A stretch of 13,606 nucleotides of DNA from Candidatus Uhrbacteria bacterium. GTDB taxonomy: Bacteria > Patescibacteriota > Patescibacteriia > JACQRZ01. The position numbers and the translations under genes were made by a program. Positions 647 through 7,082 of this stretch are shown here, in pieces; within the stretch, counting starts at the first letter, position 1, and the number at the start of each line of letters is the position of its first letter. The notes below the pieces were generated by a model. That model was not told the DNA's origin, did no database searches, and saw only the letters and a program-made list of their open reading frames with translations. The DNA is taken from NCBI GenBank assembly GCA_016186045.1, contig JACPMJ010000018.1, forward strand, positions 1 through 13,606. Direction: 5' to 3'.

Positions 647-721
647 GGTGGCTATAGTTTAGTGGCAAAACTGCGGTTTGTGGTACCGTTGTCGAGAGTT
701 CGATTCTCTCTAGCCACCCCA
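647..721 (+). tRNA. tRNA-His (anticodon GTG) with genomically encoded G-1 and 3' CCA
   Basis: Hand-folded cloverleaf. G-1 (647) pairs with discriminator C73 (718). Acceptor GTGGCTA/TAGCCAC, D-stem GTTT/AAAC, anticodon stem GCGGT/ACCGT with loop TTGTGGT (anticodon GTG), T-arm GAGAG-TTCGATT-CTCTC, then CCA at 719-721. Encoded G-1 is the bacterial hallmark of tRNA-His. Confidence 0.85.
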
Positions 722-723
722 TG

Positions 724-752
724 AAAGCATCTCCTTCGCGGAGGTGTTTTTG
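724..752 (+). terminator. Intrinsic terminator, family copy A (CATCTCC-TTCGC-GGAGGTG + TTTTTG), immediately 3' of tRNA-His
   Basis: 7-bp stem with one G.T wobble, 5-nt loop, T5 tract. First of four copies of the same module. Confidence 0.7.
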
Positions 753-754
753 TA

Positions 755-790
755 TTAAAAACCCTACCAATGCATAGCATCAGTAGGGAA
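755..790 (-). terminator. Minus-strand intrinsic terminator for the MVP-homolog gene (CCCTAC-15 nt-GTAGGG + U-tract)
   Basis: Hairpin 762-788. The plus-strand A-run 757-761 becomes the U-tract on the minus strand. It lies 30 nt downstream of the MVP stop at 819. Confidence 0.5.
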
Positions 791-818
791 TGTTTTCTAT
801 CGCTTTTTTGCGATCTTT

Positions 819-2522
819 TTATTCTTCATTCATCAGACGATCAACGCCAAGATGCATCCGCGCATCCGTAGGAACGATCACTTTGTCGGTTTTCTGAAGA
901 GCCCGAGCCCGTTCGAGCTCAATGAAACGCGCTCCACCGGTTTGCTCAAGTGCGGAAATAACAACTGCGAGCCGCTCCTTCTCAGCATCGCGCTCCGCTT
1001 GCGCTTTCACAATAAGCGCTTCTGCCTCGCCCGTGGCTGTTTCTATTTTTGCTGCCCGAGCAGTCTTTGCCGATTCCAATATTCTGAAACGTTCATTCAC
1101 TGTTTCAAGCTCAAGGAGAGCTTTCCGCACCTCCTCATTTTTCTTTCTCCCCTCAATAAGACGTCGCTCACTGTCAAGCTTCGCCTCTTCCCGCAGTCGA
1201 TTTGTGAACACATCCACATTTGCCTTAATGGCATCAGCAAGCTTTTCCTGGATTTCTTCATCCTCGGGAGTGATGCCCTCAACATCAATACCGAACACTT
1301 CGAACCCATTCTCTGGAAAAACCCTACTGCCACTCTCATCGAAGATCACCTCTTTAATGAGACGCGCGGCTCCAGCATGAAATGCTTCAAAATCATGCTT
1401 AGCGGCAATTTCGCGGATTTCAGAAGAAAGAACTTCAACAGCGAACCCAATTGGATCCTTGAGTGAAAAAACTTTCTCTGGAGCGTTCAGATCCACTTGA
1501 AAGCGCCAATGAAAGTTTACATCAAGGACAAGCGTTGCATTATCCTTTGTTCGCACAACGAGTTTGTCTAAGATGAAATCCGGTCCCAAGTCCAAGACTG
1601 CAACACGAAGTGCGTTTGGTTTCACCGGCACTCCACCGGAAAGATGAAGAACTCGCGGTCGCTCATGAGGCCCGAAAAAGACCGTTGCCGGACCAAGTAC
1701 AACCTGTCTCTCTTTACCGTGATGTAGGCAGATTGCTTGATGATCTTCAAGATCTACCACAACGGCATCCGTGTTGTCACGACGCGGCCTTGGAGACGCA
1801 ACGAGGACTCGCGTATCACGACCCACTTGCTGAGGAATAAATCCAAGCGCCTCTTCCTCTTCTGGGGTAAGTTTTTTCTCCCAGAAGCTCTCGTTCTGTT
1901 CCAAAAAAAGATCCTGCTCACCCTGCTCAAGACGAACTTCACCCGTATCATCATTCTGGACATATTTACCTTCTTCGAGAGAGAGCGAGGCACTCACCCG
2001 ATGCTCCACTATTTCGATGTCTTTGTGCGGCACGAAACGACAGAATCCACGAACAATGACCTCTTTGCCCGCTGAAATGAGTCGGTGCGACTCAACTGGA
2101 TGCGGAGCTTCCTTGATTGCCCGAACAAGCAAGGCGTCATCATCTGTCAAGATAATCTCGCTCTTCACGCCCTGCGAATCAAGTTGTTCGCCAAAATGTA
2201 GTGAAAAGCAATCAGGACCTACACGGATCGCCCGTTCACCCTCCGCGATATCTCCTTGTTCCTTAATGTATGGATTATGAACGCGCACCCATTCTCCGTC
2301 ACGGAGAATGATTTTTTTCTGAACACCTCCCTTAATCTCCCCAAAGGATCCAAGCCAAAAACGAGACGGACCCTCGCGAAGCATGATCTTTCCGGTCAGA
2401 TTATTTCGCACCCAGCAAAACTGAAAGCGATCCAAAATAACCCTCCTGAAAAGATTTTTAGCTAAACTAACGAGGAGGTCGCCGAACCAGGTAGCTTTTT
2501 GTGTGTCACTATTCATAGACAT
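819..2522 (-). CDS. Major vault protein (MVP) homolog, shortened (~567 aa): MVP repeats + shoulder (SPFH-like) domain + cap-helix coiled coil
   Basis: From memory of rat/human MVP. The C-terminal half aligns by eye to the MVP shoulder and cap-helix:
- ours LVLDVNFHWRFQ ... VFPENGFEVFGIDVEGITPEDEE ... EAKLDSERRLIEGRKKNEEVRKALLELE ... TGEAEALIVKAQAERDAEKERL
- MVP LQLQLAYNWHFE ... [22 protein letters not shown] ... [30 protein letters not shown] ... [34 protein letters not shown]
- also GPHERPRVLHLSGGVPVKPNALRVAVLDLGPDF versus [20 protein letters not shown].
The N-terminal ~330 aa contain several approximately 50-55-aa repeats with the G-E/D-E-W-L/V...P signature (DGEWVRVHNPYIKEQG; GKEVIVRGFCRFVPHKDIEIVE). 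Preferred start is ATG 2522 (MSMNSD...), preceded by AAAGGAAGGG-N5. The ORF-track start at 2567 has no SD. Stop is TAA. Confidence 0.85.
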   Translation of the reverse strand: MSMNSDTQKATWFGDLLVSLAKNLFRRVILDRFQFCWVRNNLTGKIMLREGPSRFWLGSFGEIKGGVQKKIILRDGEWVRVHNPYIKEQGDIAEGERAIRVGPDCFSLHFGEQLDSQGVKSEIILTDDDALLVRAIKEAPHPVESHRLISAGKEVIVRGFCRFVPHKDIEIVEHRVSASLSLEEGKYVQNDDTGEVRLEQGEQDLFLEQNESFWEKKLTPEEEEALGFIPQQVGRDTRVLVASPRPRRDNTDAVVVDLEDHQAICLHHGKERQVVLGPATVFFGPHERPRVLHLSGGVPVKPNALRVAVLDLGPDFILDKLVVRTKDNATLVLDVNFHWRFQVDLNAPEKVFSLKDPIGFAVEVLSSEIREIAAKHDFEAFHAGAARLIKEVIFDESGSRVFPENGFEVFGIDVEGITPEDEEIQEKLADAIKANVDVFTNRLREEAKLDSERRLIEGRKKNEEVRKALLELETVNERFRILESAKTARAAKIETATGEAEALIVKAQAERDAEKERLAVVISALEQTGGARFIELERARALQKTDKVIVPTDARMHLGVDRLMNEE

Positions 2523-5991: not shown

Positions 5992-6182
5992 GATTCCTTC
6001 CTTTCAAGGAACGCGGCGCTCAAGCGATCCGACATTTGCCGGAGTGAATGACCAAAAGCCATCCACGCACCCTACAAAAAATATGATACCAAACTGACAT
6101 TTTTATGTTTTAAATATGTTACATAAAATTTAATTAAACGAGATAGTAGTCCATTTATGTCTATATTATAATACAAAATAAC

Positions 6183-6211
6183 TTGACACGATTAATAATA
6201 TGTTGTAATAT
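6183..6211 (+). promoter_or_regulatory. Sigma70-like promoter TTGACA-N17-TAATAT for TrmB-like paralog 2
   Basis: TTGACA at 6183-6188, which is the ORF-track TTG start. TAATAT at 6206-6211. ATG 6228 lies about 10 nt after the predicted TSS, with no SD. Confidence 0.55.
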
Positions 6212-6227
6212 AGATACTACAGAATAT

Positions 6228-7004
6228 ATGATTTCTCAACTGAAACCCATCCTTAAGCAACTCGATCTCAATACCAATGACACAAAGGTTTTTTTGGCGG
6301 CTTTTGAATTGGATTACGCGCCTGCTTCGGAAATCGCCAAGCGGGCACATTTGAACAGAATTACCGCCTATGAGGCGCTCAAACGCCTCGTGAAGAAAGG
6401 TTTAGTACGATCAAGGGTGCTAAAGGGGAGTGGTGTAAAGTATTTTGAAGTTGAGGATATCGGAATTCTGCAAAATGCTCTGAACGAAAAGAAAGTGTCT
6501 GTTGAGCATGCACTTTCTGATATCCAAACACTTGCCGCACAACTCCGCGCAAAGTATACGGGACGTTCGGAAAAGCCGGTTGTACTTTTCTACGAAGGGC
6601 GAAGTGGAATAAAAAACATCCTCTTGGACACGCTCCATCAACAACCAAAAGAGATCCTCTCATTCGCGTCTGCCGATTTTCTTGAGTTGGGATATGATTT
6701 TCATTTTTTGGAAAGATATTGGAAACAGCGCGTTGAATATAAAATTCCCTCCCGTGGCATCATCCCAAAAACTGACTGTGCCGTATCGCTTTTTACTCCC
6801 GAACGCAATGTACGCGAATTACGACAGATACATTTTGTCGATCCGAGAGGATATATGTTTAAAAATGAAATTGATATTTACGGCGATACTGTTTCAATCA
6901 TATCCCTCGTGAAGGGAAATGAGCATGGCGTCATTTTGCGAAGTCGCAGTATCGCAGAAGGATTGCGATCTATTTTTGAATTGGTATGGAACACAAATTG
7001 CTAA
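6228..7004 (+). CDS. TrmB-family winged-HTH transcriptional regulator (paralog 2)
   Basis: LDLNTNDTKVFLAAFELDYAPASEIAKRAHLNRITAYEALKRLVKKGLV is the wHTH. The C-terminal domain is collinear with paralog 1 (V.LF.G...FS...RV...I.SR...LRQI...IY...VSI...W). Start moved to ATG 6228. Confidence 0.75.
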   Translation: MISQLKPILKQLDLNTNDTKVFLAAFELDYAPASEIAKRAHLNRITAYEALKRLVKKGLVRSRVLKGSGVKYFEVEDIGILQNALNEKKVSVEHALSDIQTLAAQLRAKYTGRSEKPVVLFYEGRSGIKNILLDTLHQQPKEILSFASADFLELGYDFHFLERYWKQRVEYKIPSRGIIPKTDCAVSLFTPERNVRELRQIHFVDPRGYMFKNEIDIYGDTVSIISLVKGNEHGVILRSRSIAEGLRSIFELVWNTNC

Positions 7005-7047
7005 ATCAGCAACTGCGGCTCTACCATGTTTCACTATAGTACCCCAT

Positions 7048-7082
7048 GAAAACATCTCCCTCGCGGAGGTGTTTTTGTTTTT
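7048..7082 (+). terminator. Intrinsic terminator, family copy D (ACCCCATGAAAACATCTCC-CTCGC-GGAGGTG TTTTTGTTTTT)
   Basis: Near-identical to copy A, including the ACCCCATGAAA prefix that in copy A is the tRNA-His 3' end. Confidence 0.7.

What the first reader, a model, noticed from the sequence alone, without database searches (positions are those of the whole stretch)
715..7082. Four-member family of terminator modules with conserved stem halves and variable loop cargo, the first fused to the tRNA-His 3' end
The module ACCCCAT(G/A)AAA(G/A)CATCT(C/T)C ... GGAGGTGTTTTT(G/A)TTT occurs after tRNA-His (715-752), the TrmB-like paralog 1 (3522-3573), the ATPase (4866-4927) and the TrmB-like paralog 2 (7043-7082). 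Stem halves and flanks are conserved, while the loop carries 5, 26, 34 (a nested perfect hairpin) or 5 nt. Copies A and D are near-identical over ~37 bp, including ACCCCA, which in copy A is the last six nucleotides of tRNA-His. Two readings are possible:
- (i) a reused terminator cassette whose 3' stem half GGAGGTG is a perfect Shine-Dalgarno/anti-16S match. Three of the four copies run straight into a TTGACA -35 hexamer, so the unit behaves like a portable insulator-promoter joint.
- (ii) serial att-like duplications from tandem integrations at the tRNA-His 3' end. This would partition 753-7082 into three cargo blocks (MVP+TrmB1 / ATPase / MITE+hypothetical+TrmB2).
Basis: seen in the sequence. 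Interest (0 to 1): 0.6.

Follow-up and report, generated by a model that had tools for sequence, protein, structure and literature searches.

The report
tRNA-His terminator copies bounding gene cassettes
The four repeats are copies of the transcription terminator that follows the tRNA-His gene, each still carrying the tRNA's last six bases, and they mark the borders of small swappable gene blocks stacked behind that tRNA in a group of tiny-genome groundwater bacteria (Candidatus Uhrbacteria relatives).

Summary
Four copies of ACCCCA/ATTCCA + T(G/A)AAA(G/A)CATCT(C/T)C–loop–GGAGGTGTTTTT lie at 716-753, 3515-3574, 4859-4924 and 7041-7078. The 3' 12-mer occurs 4 times against 0.06 expected.

**What the hairpin is.** It behaves as a terminator. 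Across 23 copies from the window and 13 related loci, 96% of pairs hold and 6 pairs show compensatory changes. Copy B, with a 27-nt loop, is weak.

**Where copies occur.** The family is not genome-wide. Across 209 kb, sense hits above 40 bits are fused to tRNA-His or 0.6-6.3 kb downstream, except where contigs hold no tRNA-His.

**Evidence for insertion.**
- One relative (L006) has the empty site.
- Another (L007) has about 0.9 kb inserted exactly after CACCCCA. The insert ends in a conserved ~30-nt motif plus CACCCCA.
- L005 has the same element ends with different cargo.
- The ATPase block recurs in four genomes with different neighbours.

**Verdict.** The att-like reading is largely supported, and the copies are also terminators. 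The Shine-Dalgarno and "insulator-promoter joint" ideas are not supported: only 2 of 4 copies abut TTGACA.

**Open question.** No array encodes an integrase, so the recombination mechanism is unknown. This is a new variant of tRNA-anchored island growth.

The parts
647..721 (+). tRNA-His (GTG) with G-1 at 647 and an encoded CCA. Its last 7 nt, CACCCCA (715-721), are the anchor and insertion core.
   Evidence: ARAGORN and Rfam tRNA at 62.5 bits. The EamA-tRNA-His arrangement is conserved in relatives.
716..753 (+). Module A: ACCCCA (716-721) plus a 14-bp hairpin (721-734 / 740-753) and a T-tract. It is the current terminator of tRNA-His.
   Evidence: Fold of -16.1 kcal/mol, z -4.2. CM score 63.8 bits. 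The same fusion to tRNA-His occurs in L006, L008, L009, L010, L012, L024, L028, L029 and L039.
722..3520 (.). Block 1: hairpin A, the MVP/SPFH-like gene (819-2567, minus strand) with its own terminator (762-788, minus strand), the divergent promoter region, TrmB-like 1 (2748-3497, plus strand), and a decayed 3' boundary ...GCATTCCA.
   Evidence: Pfam and the terminator scan. In the closest relative, L029, the MVP gene is replaced by CbiA-like plus hyp179, while TrmB1 is kept at 82% aa identity.
3515..3574 (+). Module B: ATTCCA plus stem 3520-3533 / 3561-3574 with a 27-nt loop. It is a degenerate copy, followed at once by the ATPase promoter TTGACA-16-TATACT (3575-3602).
   Evidence: Fold of -13.9 kcal/mol, z -1.1. 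CM score 45.3 bits. Promoter scan 11/12. The ortholog in L029 is a tight GAAA-loop hairpin with compensatory stem changes and a full upstream motif.
3521..4864 (+). Block 2: hairpin B, promoter, the AAA_14/DUF4143 ATPase (3639-4839, frameshifted near 4441-4454), and the boundary ...GTTTACCCCA.
   Evidence: Pfam and PADLOC PDC-S01 at 3e-108. The same unit, with different neighbours on both sides, occurs in MAG JACQWH01 (L005+L004), L029 and L041-44.
4859..4924 (+). Module C: ACCCCA (4859-4864), an outer stem 4864-4877 / 4911-4924, and a nested perfect 13-bp hairpin (4881-4893 / 4898-4910).
   Evidence: Fold of -44.1 kcal/mol, z -8.7. CM score 53.4 bits. The nested hairpin is conserved in L029 (4319-4376) and, upstream of the ATPase, in L042 (2553-2623; 84% over 63 nt).
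4865..7046 (.). Block 3: hairpin C, the minus-strand terminator flank (4925-4960), a MITE (4950-5113), hypothetical genes on the minus strand (5186-5377, 5374-5991), TrmB-like 2 (6228-7004, plus strand), and a partial upstream motif plus ACCCCA (7020-7046).
   Evidence: The 46 nt after C (4911-4956) are 91% identical to the flank after the tRNA-fused copy in L029. Window 7020-7083 is 83% identical to the right end of the L007 insert.
7041..7078 (+). Module D: ACCCCA (7041-7046) plus hairpin 7046-7059 / 7065-7078. It is probably the displaced ancestral tRNA-His terminator, followed by promoter TTGACA-16-TACAAT (7091-7118) for the RHH/ParE-like pair.
   Evidence: Fold of -16.1 kcal/mol, z -4.1. 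CM score 60.5 bits. It is 38/41 identical to A. Its 3' flank GTTTTTGTTTTTC matches the tRNA-fused copies of L006 and L029.

Best explanation
The module is the Rho-independent terminator of the tRNA-His gene joined to the tRNA's last six to seven bases (C)ACCCCA.

**At the RNA level.** Each copy is an A-tract/stem/U-tract hairpin. It ends the transcript coming from the left (tRNA-His, TrmB1, the ATPase, TrmB2) and insulates the next unit.

**At the DNA level.** Copies B, C and D are boundary scars of a variable island that grew behind tRNA-His by insertion of small, self-contained gene blocks that encode no integrase. These blocks carry their own promoters and terminators. Each block has a terminator hairpin at its tRNA-proximal end. 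At its distal end it has a pseudo 3' end: a ~30-nt motif with consensus TAGTTCYAACATCCTCYACYACGG, followed by CACCCCA.

**Inferred insertion step.** A circular or donor form carrying [motif-CACCCCA-hairpin] recombines with CACCCCA at the tRNA's 3' end. The incoming hairpin then becomes the tRNA's new terminator, and the older one is pushed downstream. In the window, D is probably the original terminator.

**What is shown.**
- Hairpin structure and covariation.
- Restriction of the family to the tRNA-His region.
- The empty versus occupied site pair.
- Conserved ends with variable cargo.
- Recurrence of the ATPase block.

**What is inferred.**
- The circular intermediate.
- The crossover position inside CACCCCA.
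- The enzyme, which must act in trans. Candidates are the XerC/D-like recombinase conserved just upstream of tRNA-Arg/tRNA-His in relatives, or plain homologous recombination.
For: **Structure.**
- Of 23 copies, 96.2% of cells are paired.
- 6 of 15 pairs have changes on both sides.
- 0 of 500 shuffles reach any measure, and slid controls give 53-65% paired.
- All copies fold as hairpins followed by a T-tract.

**Position.** All four window copies sit 0-40 nt after a plus-strand gene or the tRNA.

**Restriction to the tRNA-His region.**
- Covariance model R1 was run over 152.7 kb, 41 kb and 15 kb. Wherever the locus holds tRNA-His, every sense hit above 40 bits is fused to it or lies 0.6-6.3 kb downstream in the same orientation.
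- L003, L004 and L041-44 (38.7 bits) hold no tRNA-His, so their position is unknown.
- The rest of the window, L024, L039 and the distant ATPase loci give nothing.
- The exact pattern occurs only 1-2 times per MAG among 185,579 species genomes.

**Insertion signature.**
- L006 reads tRNA-His...GCCACCCCA|TAAAAGCATCTCC...GTTTTTCTGTGCTAGAAT.
- L007 has the same tRNA and the same distal flank. It carries CACCCCA|ACAGGAATTGAAC(other terminator)...NYN gene...TAGTTCTAACATCCTCTACTACGGCACCCCA|TGAAAGCATCTCC.
- L005 has the same two ends, 87% identical. Its cargo is unrelated and its tRNA-His allele is different.

**Arrays elsewhere.**

| Locus | Copies | Cargo |
|---|---|---|
| L010 | 3 | transglutaminase-like, P-loop kinase |
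| L011 | 3 | MerR, hypotheticals |
| L012 | 2 | GH3 |
| L024 | 2 | NUDIX |
| L029 | 3 | CbiA-like, hyp179, TrmB1, ATPase |

**Foreign acceptor ends.** Some distal copies carry an acceptor-end variant that differs from the resident tRNA. L011 mid has GCCACCCCA where the resident tRNA has CTCACCCCA. L024 has CTCACCCCA where the resident tRNA has GCCACCCCA.

**Upstream motif.**
- It occurs only directly 5' of module copies.
- In L042 it is followed by an unrelated AT-rich hairpin. The boundary is therefore motif-CCCCA, and the hairpin belongs to the next unit.

**Not copied with the genes.** TrmB1 and TrmB2 are only about 25% identical, while A and D are 93% identical.
Against: - No integrase, excisionase or transposase gene lies in any of the arrays examined.
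- No circular form or attP-bearing phage or plasmid was found: three viral-collection scans returned nothing.
- The overlap with the tRNA is only 6-7 nt, shorter than typical tRNA att cores.
- Similarity of the upstream motif to a tRNA-His or tmRNA 3' half is not significant.
- Some rearrangements do not use the ACCCCA junction. The MVP versus CbiA+hyp179 swap runs from the T-tract of A to the TrmB1 promoter. The 1.6-kb L041 indel has ATTAT microhomology 3' of a hairpin. L029 and L042 share sequence only from the hairpin's 3' arm onward.
- All Logan contigs of the window's own population show the same arrangement, so there is no within-population presence/absence evidence.
- Loci found by the pattern scans are ascertainment-biased. 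The four EamA-seeded loci are not. All four have the tRNA-fused copy, and 2 of 4 have distal copies.
Confidence: 0.65

Rival explanations
1. Cassette shuffling by ordinary homologous recombination. In this view the 35-70-bp modules, with tRNA-His on one side, serve only as portable homology. Recombination would use incoming DNA from natural transformation, or follow breaks made by homing-endonuclease-like genes next to tRNA-His. No site-specific recombinase or defined crossover is involved.
For: - Repeat length differs from case to case. In L012 the repeat extends about 30 nt into the promoter. In L010 it is 25 nt plus 11 nt.
- Several differences have junctions away from ACCCCA.
- No integrase lies in any array.
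- HNH_3-like ORFs abut tRNA-His in L005, L009 and L010, and a LAGLIDADG_3 ORF abuts it in L011.
Against: - The L006/L007/L005 inserts have a precise junction after CACCCCA with only a 7-nt repeat. That is too short for RecA-type recombination.
- Those inserts have conserved ends around unrelated cargo.
- The motif-CCCCA boundary is kept even when an unrelated hairpin follows.
- The HNH matches are below Pfam's cut-off, and the window has no such gene.
Confidence: 0.2
2. Plain terminators with no mobility. In this view the tRNA-His terminator was copied locally by segmental duplication or gene conversion, and the ACCCCA was carried along passively.
For: - All copies lie at 3' ends of plus-strand genes and fold as terminators.
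- Two copies follow TrmB-like paralogs.
Against: - TrmB1 and TrmB2 are about 25% identical, while A and D are 93% identical.
- An empty and an occupied site exist in relatives with the same tRNA and the same distal flank.
- Cargo differs between genomes.
- Some distal copies carry acceptor-end variants foreign to the resident tRNA.
- The hairpin sequence does not track host relatedness. Loci with EamA 47% identical to the window's share CATCTCC/GGAGGTG, while loci at 79-83% have diverged stems.
Confidence: 0.1
3. The palindrome is itself a recombination site. One version is a dif-like core, with two 11-bp arms and a spacer, used by the neighbouring XerC/D-like recombinase. That would resemble elements that exploit Xer, or the pdif modules of Acinetobacter plasmids. 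The other version is an integron attC-like folded site.
For: - A XerC/D-like tyrosine recombinase is conserved 0.5-1 kb upstream of tRNA-His in L006, L007, L009, L012 and L024-28.
- The arms are inverted repeats around a short spacer.
- Loop length is variable, as in attC sites.
Against: - The spacer varies from 4 to 33 nt, and the arms covary rather than staying fixed.
- The mapped junction lies 5' of the hairpin, and the hairpin can be replaced by unrelated ones.
- The recombinase scores as XerC/D at 230-246 bits. It scores only 125-133 bits on the integron-integrase model, whose cut-off is 265.
- There is no GTTRRRY core, and the blocks have their own promoters.
- In L011 the site lies 2 kb from parB, which is normally near the origin rather than the terminus.
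- The window and L005 lack the adjacent recombinase.
Confidence: 0.07

Closest known systems
tRNA/tmRNA-anchored genomic islands grown by successive site-specific integrations. Examples are Prochlorococcus tycheposon islands (bioRxiv 10.1101/2020.12.28.424599) and Dehalococcoides ssrA islands (PMC3146451).
   Same: - A tRNA 3' end anchors the island.
- Direct repeats containing the tRNA end separate variable cargo.
- New arrivals push older ones further from the tRNA.
- Degraded remnants persist.
- The host genome is streamlined and has few classical mobile elements.
   Different: - The overlap with the tRNA here is only 6-7 nt (discriminator plus CCA region); the rest of the repeat is the terminator.
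- The units are 0.6-2.8 kb.
- None of the arrays seen encodes an integrase or a replication module.
- Each unit carries a terminator at its tRNA-proximal end and a conserved ~30-nt non-tRNA motif at its distal end.
Cis-mobilizable elements (CIMEs) and accretion of att-flanked elements lacking recombination genes (reviewed in PMC5704250).
   Same: Segments flanked by att-like repeats that encode no integrase and sit in tandem at one chromosomal site.
   Different: CIMEs derive from integrative conjugative or mobilizable elements, and a related integrase-bearing element mobilises them at the same site. No such helper element was seen here.
Integron cassette arrays and clusters of attC sites lacking an integrase.
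   Same: - Short cargo units lie in series.
- Each boundary has a hairpin with conserved stem and variable loop.
- Relatives have a tyrosine recombinase gene near the first site.
   Different: - The neighbouring recombinase is XerC/D-like, not IntI.
- There are no R'/R'' core sequences.
- The junction lies 5' of the hairpin.
- The units have their own promoters and terminators.
Intrinsic (Rho-independent) terminators.
   Same: - A stem-loop followed by a T-tract at gene 3' ends.
- Pairing is kept by compensatory changes.
   Different: Ordinary terminators are not sequence families and do not carry the 3' end of a tRNA.

Membership tests
Intrinsic terminator | Stable stem-loop immediately followed by a T/U-tract | tested here: met
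   A, C and D fold at -16 to -44 kcal/mol with z of -4.1 or lower, followed by TTTTT(G/A)T(A/T)T. B is weak, at z -1.1. All 23 related copies fold the same way.
Intrinsic terminator | Located just downstream of a gene, in sense orientation | tested here: met
   The copies lie 0, 21, 20 and 40 nt after tRNA-His, TrmB1, the ATPase and TrmB2.
Intrinsic terminator | Pairing conserved through compensatory change | tested here: met
   96.2% of cells are paired, 6 pairs change on both sides, and 0 of 500 shuffles reach the observed values.
Intrinsic terminator | Transcript 3' ends at the T-tract | not testable with these tools
   No RNA data are available.
att repeats of tRNA-targeting integrative elements | Direct repeats that include the tRNA 3' end and flank the inserted DNA | tested here: met
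   (C)ACCCCA is kept in 3 of 3 distal window copies, as ATTCCA, ACCCCA and ACCCCA. It is at least 90% conserved in alignment columns 5-10. The overlap with the tRNA is only 6-9 nt.
att repeats of tRNA-targeting integrative elements | Empty and occupied versions of the site in related genomes | tested here: met
   L006 is empty, and L007 and L005 are occupied with precise junctions.
att repeats of tRNA-targeting integrative elements | Integrase gene inside the element next to an att site | tested here: not met
   No recombinase or transposase domain was found in the cargo of the window, L005, L007, L010, L011, L012, L024, L029 or L041-44.
att repeats of tRNA-targeting integrative elements | Excised circular form or attP on a phage or plasmid | tested here: inconclusive
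   There were no matches in IMG/VR for the module, the predicted junction or the upstream motif. Read-level data could not be searched.
Integron (IntI, attI, attC cassettes) | Integron-type integrase adjacent to the array | tested here: not met
   The neighbouring recombinase in relatives scores 125-133 bits on TIGR02249, whose cut-off is 265, and 230-246 bits on the XerC/XerD models. The window has no such gene.
Integron (IntI, attI, attC cassettes) | attC with RYYYAAC...GTTRRRY cores and mostly promoterless cassettes | tested here: not met
   The sequences contain no such cores. The blocks have TTGACA promoters at 2730, 3575 and 6183.
Xer/dif-type site (elements exploiting Xer, pdif modules) | Two fixed ~11-bp arms around a spacer of fixed length (6-8 bp) | tested here: not met
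   The spacer ranges from 4 to 33 nt, and the arm sequence changes with compensation.
Dispersed repeats (REP, MITE, DNA uptake sequences) | Many copies scattered over the genome | tested here: not met
   There are only 1-2 exact copies per MAG. No covariance-model hits occur away from the tRNA-His region in about 200 kb.

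The most novel reading that the evidence does not exclude
These CPR bacteria may have a chromosomal, integron-like gene-capture platform anchored on the 3' end of tRNA-His. 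In this reading, small self-contained cassettes are inserted and excised at CACCCCA by a host enzyme acting in trans. Each cassette has a terminator first, then cargo with its own promoter, and ends in a ~30-nt recognition motif plus CACCCCA. The obvious enzyme candidate is the XerC/D-like recombinase conserved just upstream of the tRNA-Arg/tRNA-His pair. This would give tiny genomes that lack classical mobile elements a way to exchange defence and accessory genes.
Probability: 0.15. Interest if true: 0.75.

Novelty: new variant of a known kind. Interest (0 to 1): 0.5.

Why it matters
CPR/Patescibacteria have very small genomes, and how they gain and lose genes is poorly understood. This locus points to a defined hot spot behind tRNA-His where kilobase-sized units are stacked and exchanged between lineages. 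The units seen include a defence-candidate ATPase, TrmB-like regulator pairs, an MVP/SPFH-like gene, and NYN, GH3 and NUDIX genes. Each unit is bounded by a recognisable sequence signature.

That signature is a covariance model plus a 30-nt motif, and it can be searched for in metagenomes. This makes the question directly testable. If a trans-acting recombinase is found, the system would be a compact gene-capture platform distinct from integrons and from integrase-bearing islands.

There is also a practical point. The repeats and the MITE break short-read assemblies at this locus.

Tried and rejected
- **Upstream motif as a decayed tRNA-His or tmRNA 3' half.** By eye, L003 resembles the window's tmRNA 3' end. 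Shuffle tests gave z of 2.4 or lower for nearly all copies against tRNA-His. Only L003 reached z 4.1 against tmRNA. I do not claim this.\n- **attP on a phage.** The full module, the predicted circular junction CACCCCAACAGGAATTGAAC and the upstream motif each gave 0 hits in IMG/VR. The 11 hits to the bare CATCTCC...GGAGGTGTTTTT lack the CCATRAAA prefix and are unrelated.\n- **Presence/absence within the window's own population.** Logan contigs carrying MVP, hyp205 or TrmB2 all show the window's arrangement. They simply break at the MITE or the repeats.\n- **dif-like or attC-like reading of the palindrome.** Rejected on spacer variability, covariation and junction position.\n- **Genome-wide terminator or uptake-signal reading.** Rejected on copy number and location.\n- **Modules around more distant ATPase homologs.** Homologs at about 63% identity, in other contexts, have no modules.\n- **A recombinase-like domain in the TrmB-like proteins.** Only the N-terminal winged helix matched TrmB/TrmBL2.\n- **Rfam.** It reports nothing at the modules.

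Full report
**1. The observation**

The window holds one tRNA, tRNA-His(GTG), at 648-721 with an encoded CCA (Rfam 62.5 bits). Four copies of CCAT(G/A)AAA(G/A)CATCT(C/T)C–loop–GGAGGTGTTTTT lie at 719-751, 3518-3572, 4862-4922 and 7044-7076, all on the plus strand.

The repeats exceed chance:
- The 3' 12-mer occurs four times exactly against 0.06 expected.
- The 5' 14-mer occurs four times against 0.46 expected.

The copies follow these genes:

| Copy | Preceding gene | Distance after gene |
|---|---|---|
| A | tRNA-His | fused |
| B | TrmB-like gene (2748-3497) | 21 nt |
| C | AAA_14/DUF4143 ATPase (3639-4839) | 20 nt |
| D | second TrmB-like gene (6228-7004) | 40 nt |

The ATPase is frameshifted.

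Some details of the finding need correction:
- The loops are 5, 27, 33 and 5 nt.
- B has ATTCCA instead of ACCCCA.
- Only B and D are followed by a strong TTGACA promoter, at 3575 and 7091.

**2. The hairpin is a terminator**

A, C and D fold far better than shuffles, at -16.1, -44.1 and -16.1 kcal/mol. B, with its unstructured 27-nt loop, does not (z -1.1).

I aligned 23 copies from the window and 13 related loci (alignment A1). On that alignment:
- The 15-pair stem is 96.2% paired.
- Six pairs change on both sides, for example CATCTCC/GGAGGTG to CATCGCC/GGCGGTG, CGCCTTCC/GGAAGGTG and ACGTCTTCC/GGAAGATGT.
- No shuffle out of 500 reaches any measure.
- Slid controls drop to 53-65% paired.

With the A-tract before the stem and the T-tract after it, this is the anatomy of an intrinsic terminator. 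The GGAGGTG "Shine-Dalgarno" half is not fixed in relatives and changes together with its partner. I therefore see no support for a ribosome-binding role.

**3. The organism and the conserved core**

Exact-pattern scans of species genomes and of metagenomes returned ten stretches of DNA. They came from Candidatus Uhrbacteria MAGs, one MAG labelled Gammaproteobacteria, and unbinned metagenome contigs. Loci seeded independently through the EamA gene upstream of the tRNA added four more genomes.

Thirteen distinct tRNA-His loci were examined:
- Ten have the module fused to the tRNA's CCA end.
- L011 has a weak version.
- L005 and L007 have a different hairpin there.

The fusion holds across two clearly different tRNA-His alleles, with acceptor ends GCCAC and CTCAC. 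The heptamer CACCCCA is common to all of them.

**4. The family is local, not genome-wide**

I built a covariance model from A1 (R1) and searched three sets:
- 152.7 kb of the window and loci
- 41 kb of L041-44
- 15 kb of distant ATPase loci

In every locus that contains tRNA-His, each sense-strand hit above 40 bits is fused to it or lies 0.6-6.3 kb downstream in the same orientation. L003 and L004 also have strong hits, and L041-44 have hits at 38.7 bits. Those contigs hold no tRNA-His, so their position is unknown. The remaining 6.5 kb of the window has at least six other terminators but no hit, and 20-kb stretches of L024 and L039 also give none.

Across 185,579 species genomes the exact pattern occurs once or twice per MAG. 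This rejects a reused genome-wide terminator and a DNA-uptake-type signal.

**5. Evidence that the extra copies are insertion boundaries**

(a) **An empty site and an occupied site.** L006 and L007 share the same tRNA-His and the same distal flank (…GGAGGTGTTTTTGTTTwTCTrTGCTAGAAT).
- In L006 the module follows CACCCCA directly.
- In L007 about 0.93 kb lies between them.
- The insert starts right after CACCCCA with a different terminator (ACAGGAATTGAAC…GGTTCAATTTTTG) and carries a NYN-domain gene.
- It ends TAGTTCTAACATCCTCTACTACGGCACCCCA, directly before TGAAAGCATCTCC….

(b) **Same ends, different cargo.** L005 has the same two ends, 87% identical. They surround an unrelated 203-aa ORF, behind the other tRNA-His allele.

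(c) **Arrays in other genomes**:

| Locus | Copies | Cargo |
|---|---|---|
| L010 | 3 | transglutaminase-like, P-loop kinase |
| L011 | 3 | MerR, hypotheticals |
| L012 | 2 | GH3 glycosidase |
| L024 | 2 | NUDIX |
| L029 | 3 | see section 6 |

(d) **A boundary motif.** The ~30-nt motif upstream of ACCCCA (TAGTTCYAACATCCTCYACYACGG) occurs only directly 5' of distal copies. Window D retains part of it (7020-7046, 83% to L007). In L042 it follows the ATPase but is followed by an unrelated AT-rich palindrome. The conserved right boundary is therefore motif-CCCCA, and the hairpin belongs to the next unit.

(e) **Foreign acceptor ends.** Some distal copies carry an acceptor-end variant that is not the resident tRNA's.
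- The middle copy in L011 has GCCACCCCA, while the resident tRNA has CTCACCCCA.
- The distal copy in L024 has CTCACCCCA, while the resident tRNA has GCCACCCCA.
- This points to horizontal origin.

(f) **The hairpin does not track host relatedness.** Loci with EamA only 47-57% identical to the window's share CATCTCC/GGAGGTG. Loci at 79-83% have diverged stems.

(g) **Not copied with the genes.** TrmB1 and TrmB2 are only about 25% identical, while A and D are 93% identical.

**6. The window's three blocks**

*The ATPase block.* It consists of a hairpin, the TTGACA-16-TATACT promoter, the ATPase and motif-CCCCA. It recurs in several genomes:
- MAG JACQWH01, where contigs L005 and L004 abut; the ATPase is 89% and 86% identical over its two window fragments.
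- L029.
- L041-44.

Its neighbours differ on both sides in each case. The ATPase matches the PADLOC defence candidate PDC-S01 at 3e-108. It has homologs at about 60% identity in many phyla, consistent with a gene that moves between genomes.

*Copies B and C.* They share a nested-hairpin subtype. The loops begin GTA…GCCATC in both. The nested hairpin lies upstream of the ATPase in L042 and downstream of it in the window and L029.

*Copies A and D.* They share the short-loop subtype. D's flank GTTTTTGTTTTTC matches the tRNA-fused copies of L006 and L029. D is therefore probably the original terminator, displaced by 6.3 kb.

*Signs of decay.* In the window, B is degenerate and the ATPase is frameshifted, so block 2 looks like it is decaying.

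**7. What does not fit a purely site-specific model**

- No array encodes an integrase.
- No attP-bearing virus was found.
- The closest relative, L029 (EamA 93% identical), keeps TrmB1–B–ATPase–C. It has CbiA-like plus hyp179 in place of the MVP-like gene. The breakpoints lie at A's T-tract and in the TrmB1 promoter.
- L041 differs from L042 and L043 by 1.6 kb inserted 3' of a module-like hairpin, with only ATTAT microhomology at the junction.
- In L012 the repeat extends about 30 nt into the promoter.

Homologous and illegitimate recombination therefore also shape the arrays. I cannot exclude that they do most of the work.

**8. Candidate enzymes (leads only)**

A XerC/D-like tyrosine recombinase of 311-346 aa lies just upstream of tRNA-Arg–(EamA)–tRNA-His in L006, L007, L009, L012 and L024-28.
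- It scores as XerC/D, not as an integron integrase.
- It sits in conserved core synteny next to rpsO and pnp.
- It is absent next to the tRNA in the window, L005 and L039.
- Its presence does not correlate with array size.

Homing-endonuclease-like ORFs abut the 5' side of tRNA-His in four relatives. Three are HNH_3-like and below Pfam's cut-off; one is LAGLIDADG_3.

**9. Comparison with known systems and verdict**

The closest known systems are tRNA- or tmRNA-anchored islands built by successive integrations. In those, newcomers push older elements away from the tRNA and partial tRNA repeats remain. Examples are tycheposon islands (10.1101/2020.12.28.424599, read) and Dehalococcoides ssrA islands (PMC3146451, found). 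Also close are att-flanked segments without recombination genes, known as cis-mobilizable elements (PMC5704250).

This case differs from those in four ways:
- The overlap with the tRNA is very short.
- The units are small and lack an integrase.
- Each unit leads with a terminator.
- There is a dedicated non-tRNA boundary motif.

It fails the tests for integron, dif-type and dispersed-repeat membership.

I rate it a new variant of a known kind, with moderate interest. Its att-like reading is largely borne out. Its terminator reading is right structurally, but the insulator-promoter and Shine-Dalgarno additions are not supported.

Noticed in passing
window 4950-5113 and 8522-8707; L004 about 1246-1430: Two MITE-like elements with related terminal inverted repeats (GAGnnCGTTGCAAAAC…GTCATyCCCG). 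The repeats are 21 nt at 90% and 36 nt at 81%. Short-read assemblies of the same population break inside the first one. A MITE with different ends sits between the ATPase and its boundary motif in L004.
   Followed up: partly
window 3639-4839: The AAA_14/DUF4143 ATPase is split into two ORFs by a frameshift near 4441-4454. Its orthologs in L004, L029 and L042 are intact at 410-411 aa. It matches PADLOC defence candidate PDC-S01 at 3e-108. Homologs at about 60% identity occur in Omnitrophota, Margulisiibacteriota, Deltaproteobacteria and Clostridiales.
   Followed up: partly
window 819-2567 (minus strand): A 582-aa protein with the major-vault-protein shoulder domain (3e-22), Vault repeat domains and an SPFH/Band 7 domain. 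This is unusual for a CPR bacterium. The closest relative, L029, has a CbiA/ParA-like gene plus a 179-aa ORF in its place.
   Followed up: partly
window 7641-7680 and 8712-8750; 12185-12235 and 12828-12880: Two further two-copy hairpin families lie at gene ends. One is AAAAAACCTCCAGCATCTTTTTT…GATGT. The other is CCCTATCAGAAACGTTTTTT…AAAAACAYCTCTGATAGAGGC. They share the (G)GAGGT(G)TTTTT flavour but are not hit by the module model.
   Followed up: no
window 13205-13554 (minus strand): A tmRNA gene (Rfam 103.6 bits) that ARAGORN missed. Its 3' end reads …CATCTCCACTA with no encoded CCA. It runs straight into the ribosome-binding site and ATG of the next minus-strand ORF (12928-13179), with no terminator between them.
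   Followed up: no
L024 8920-9855, L028 1947-2882, L006 3213-4253, L009 4799-5782, L007 2-817, L012 2573-3280: A XerC/D-like tyrosine recombinase gene is conserved just upstream of the tRNA-Arg(TCT)–(EamA)–tRNA-His pair in at least six relatives. It is absent at that position in the window, L005 and L039.
   Followed up: partly
L005 1208-1702, L009 6783-7286, L010 1626-2042, L011 210-659: Homing-endonuclease-like ORFs end within about 15 nt of the 5' side of tRNA-His. Three are HNH_3-like at 19-22 bits, below Pfam's cut-off. One is LAGLIDADG_3 at 26.7 bits. They could contribute to recombination at this locus or to the two tRNA-His alleles.
   Followed up: partly
window 7145-7641: A small antitoxin-like ORF (75 aa) and a ParE/RelE-like toxin (90 aa) overlap by 4 nt. 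They sit directly behind module D and its TTGACA promoter.
   Followed up: no
L041 2368-3963 versus L042/L043: A strain-level 1.6-kb indel between otherwise 98-99% identical contigs. It carries a fragment of a TrmB1-like C-terminus and a 388-aa ORF. It is inserted just 3' of a module-like hairpin, with ATTAT microhomology at the junction.
   Followed up: partly
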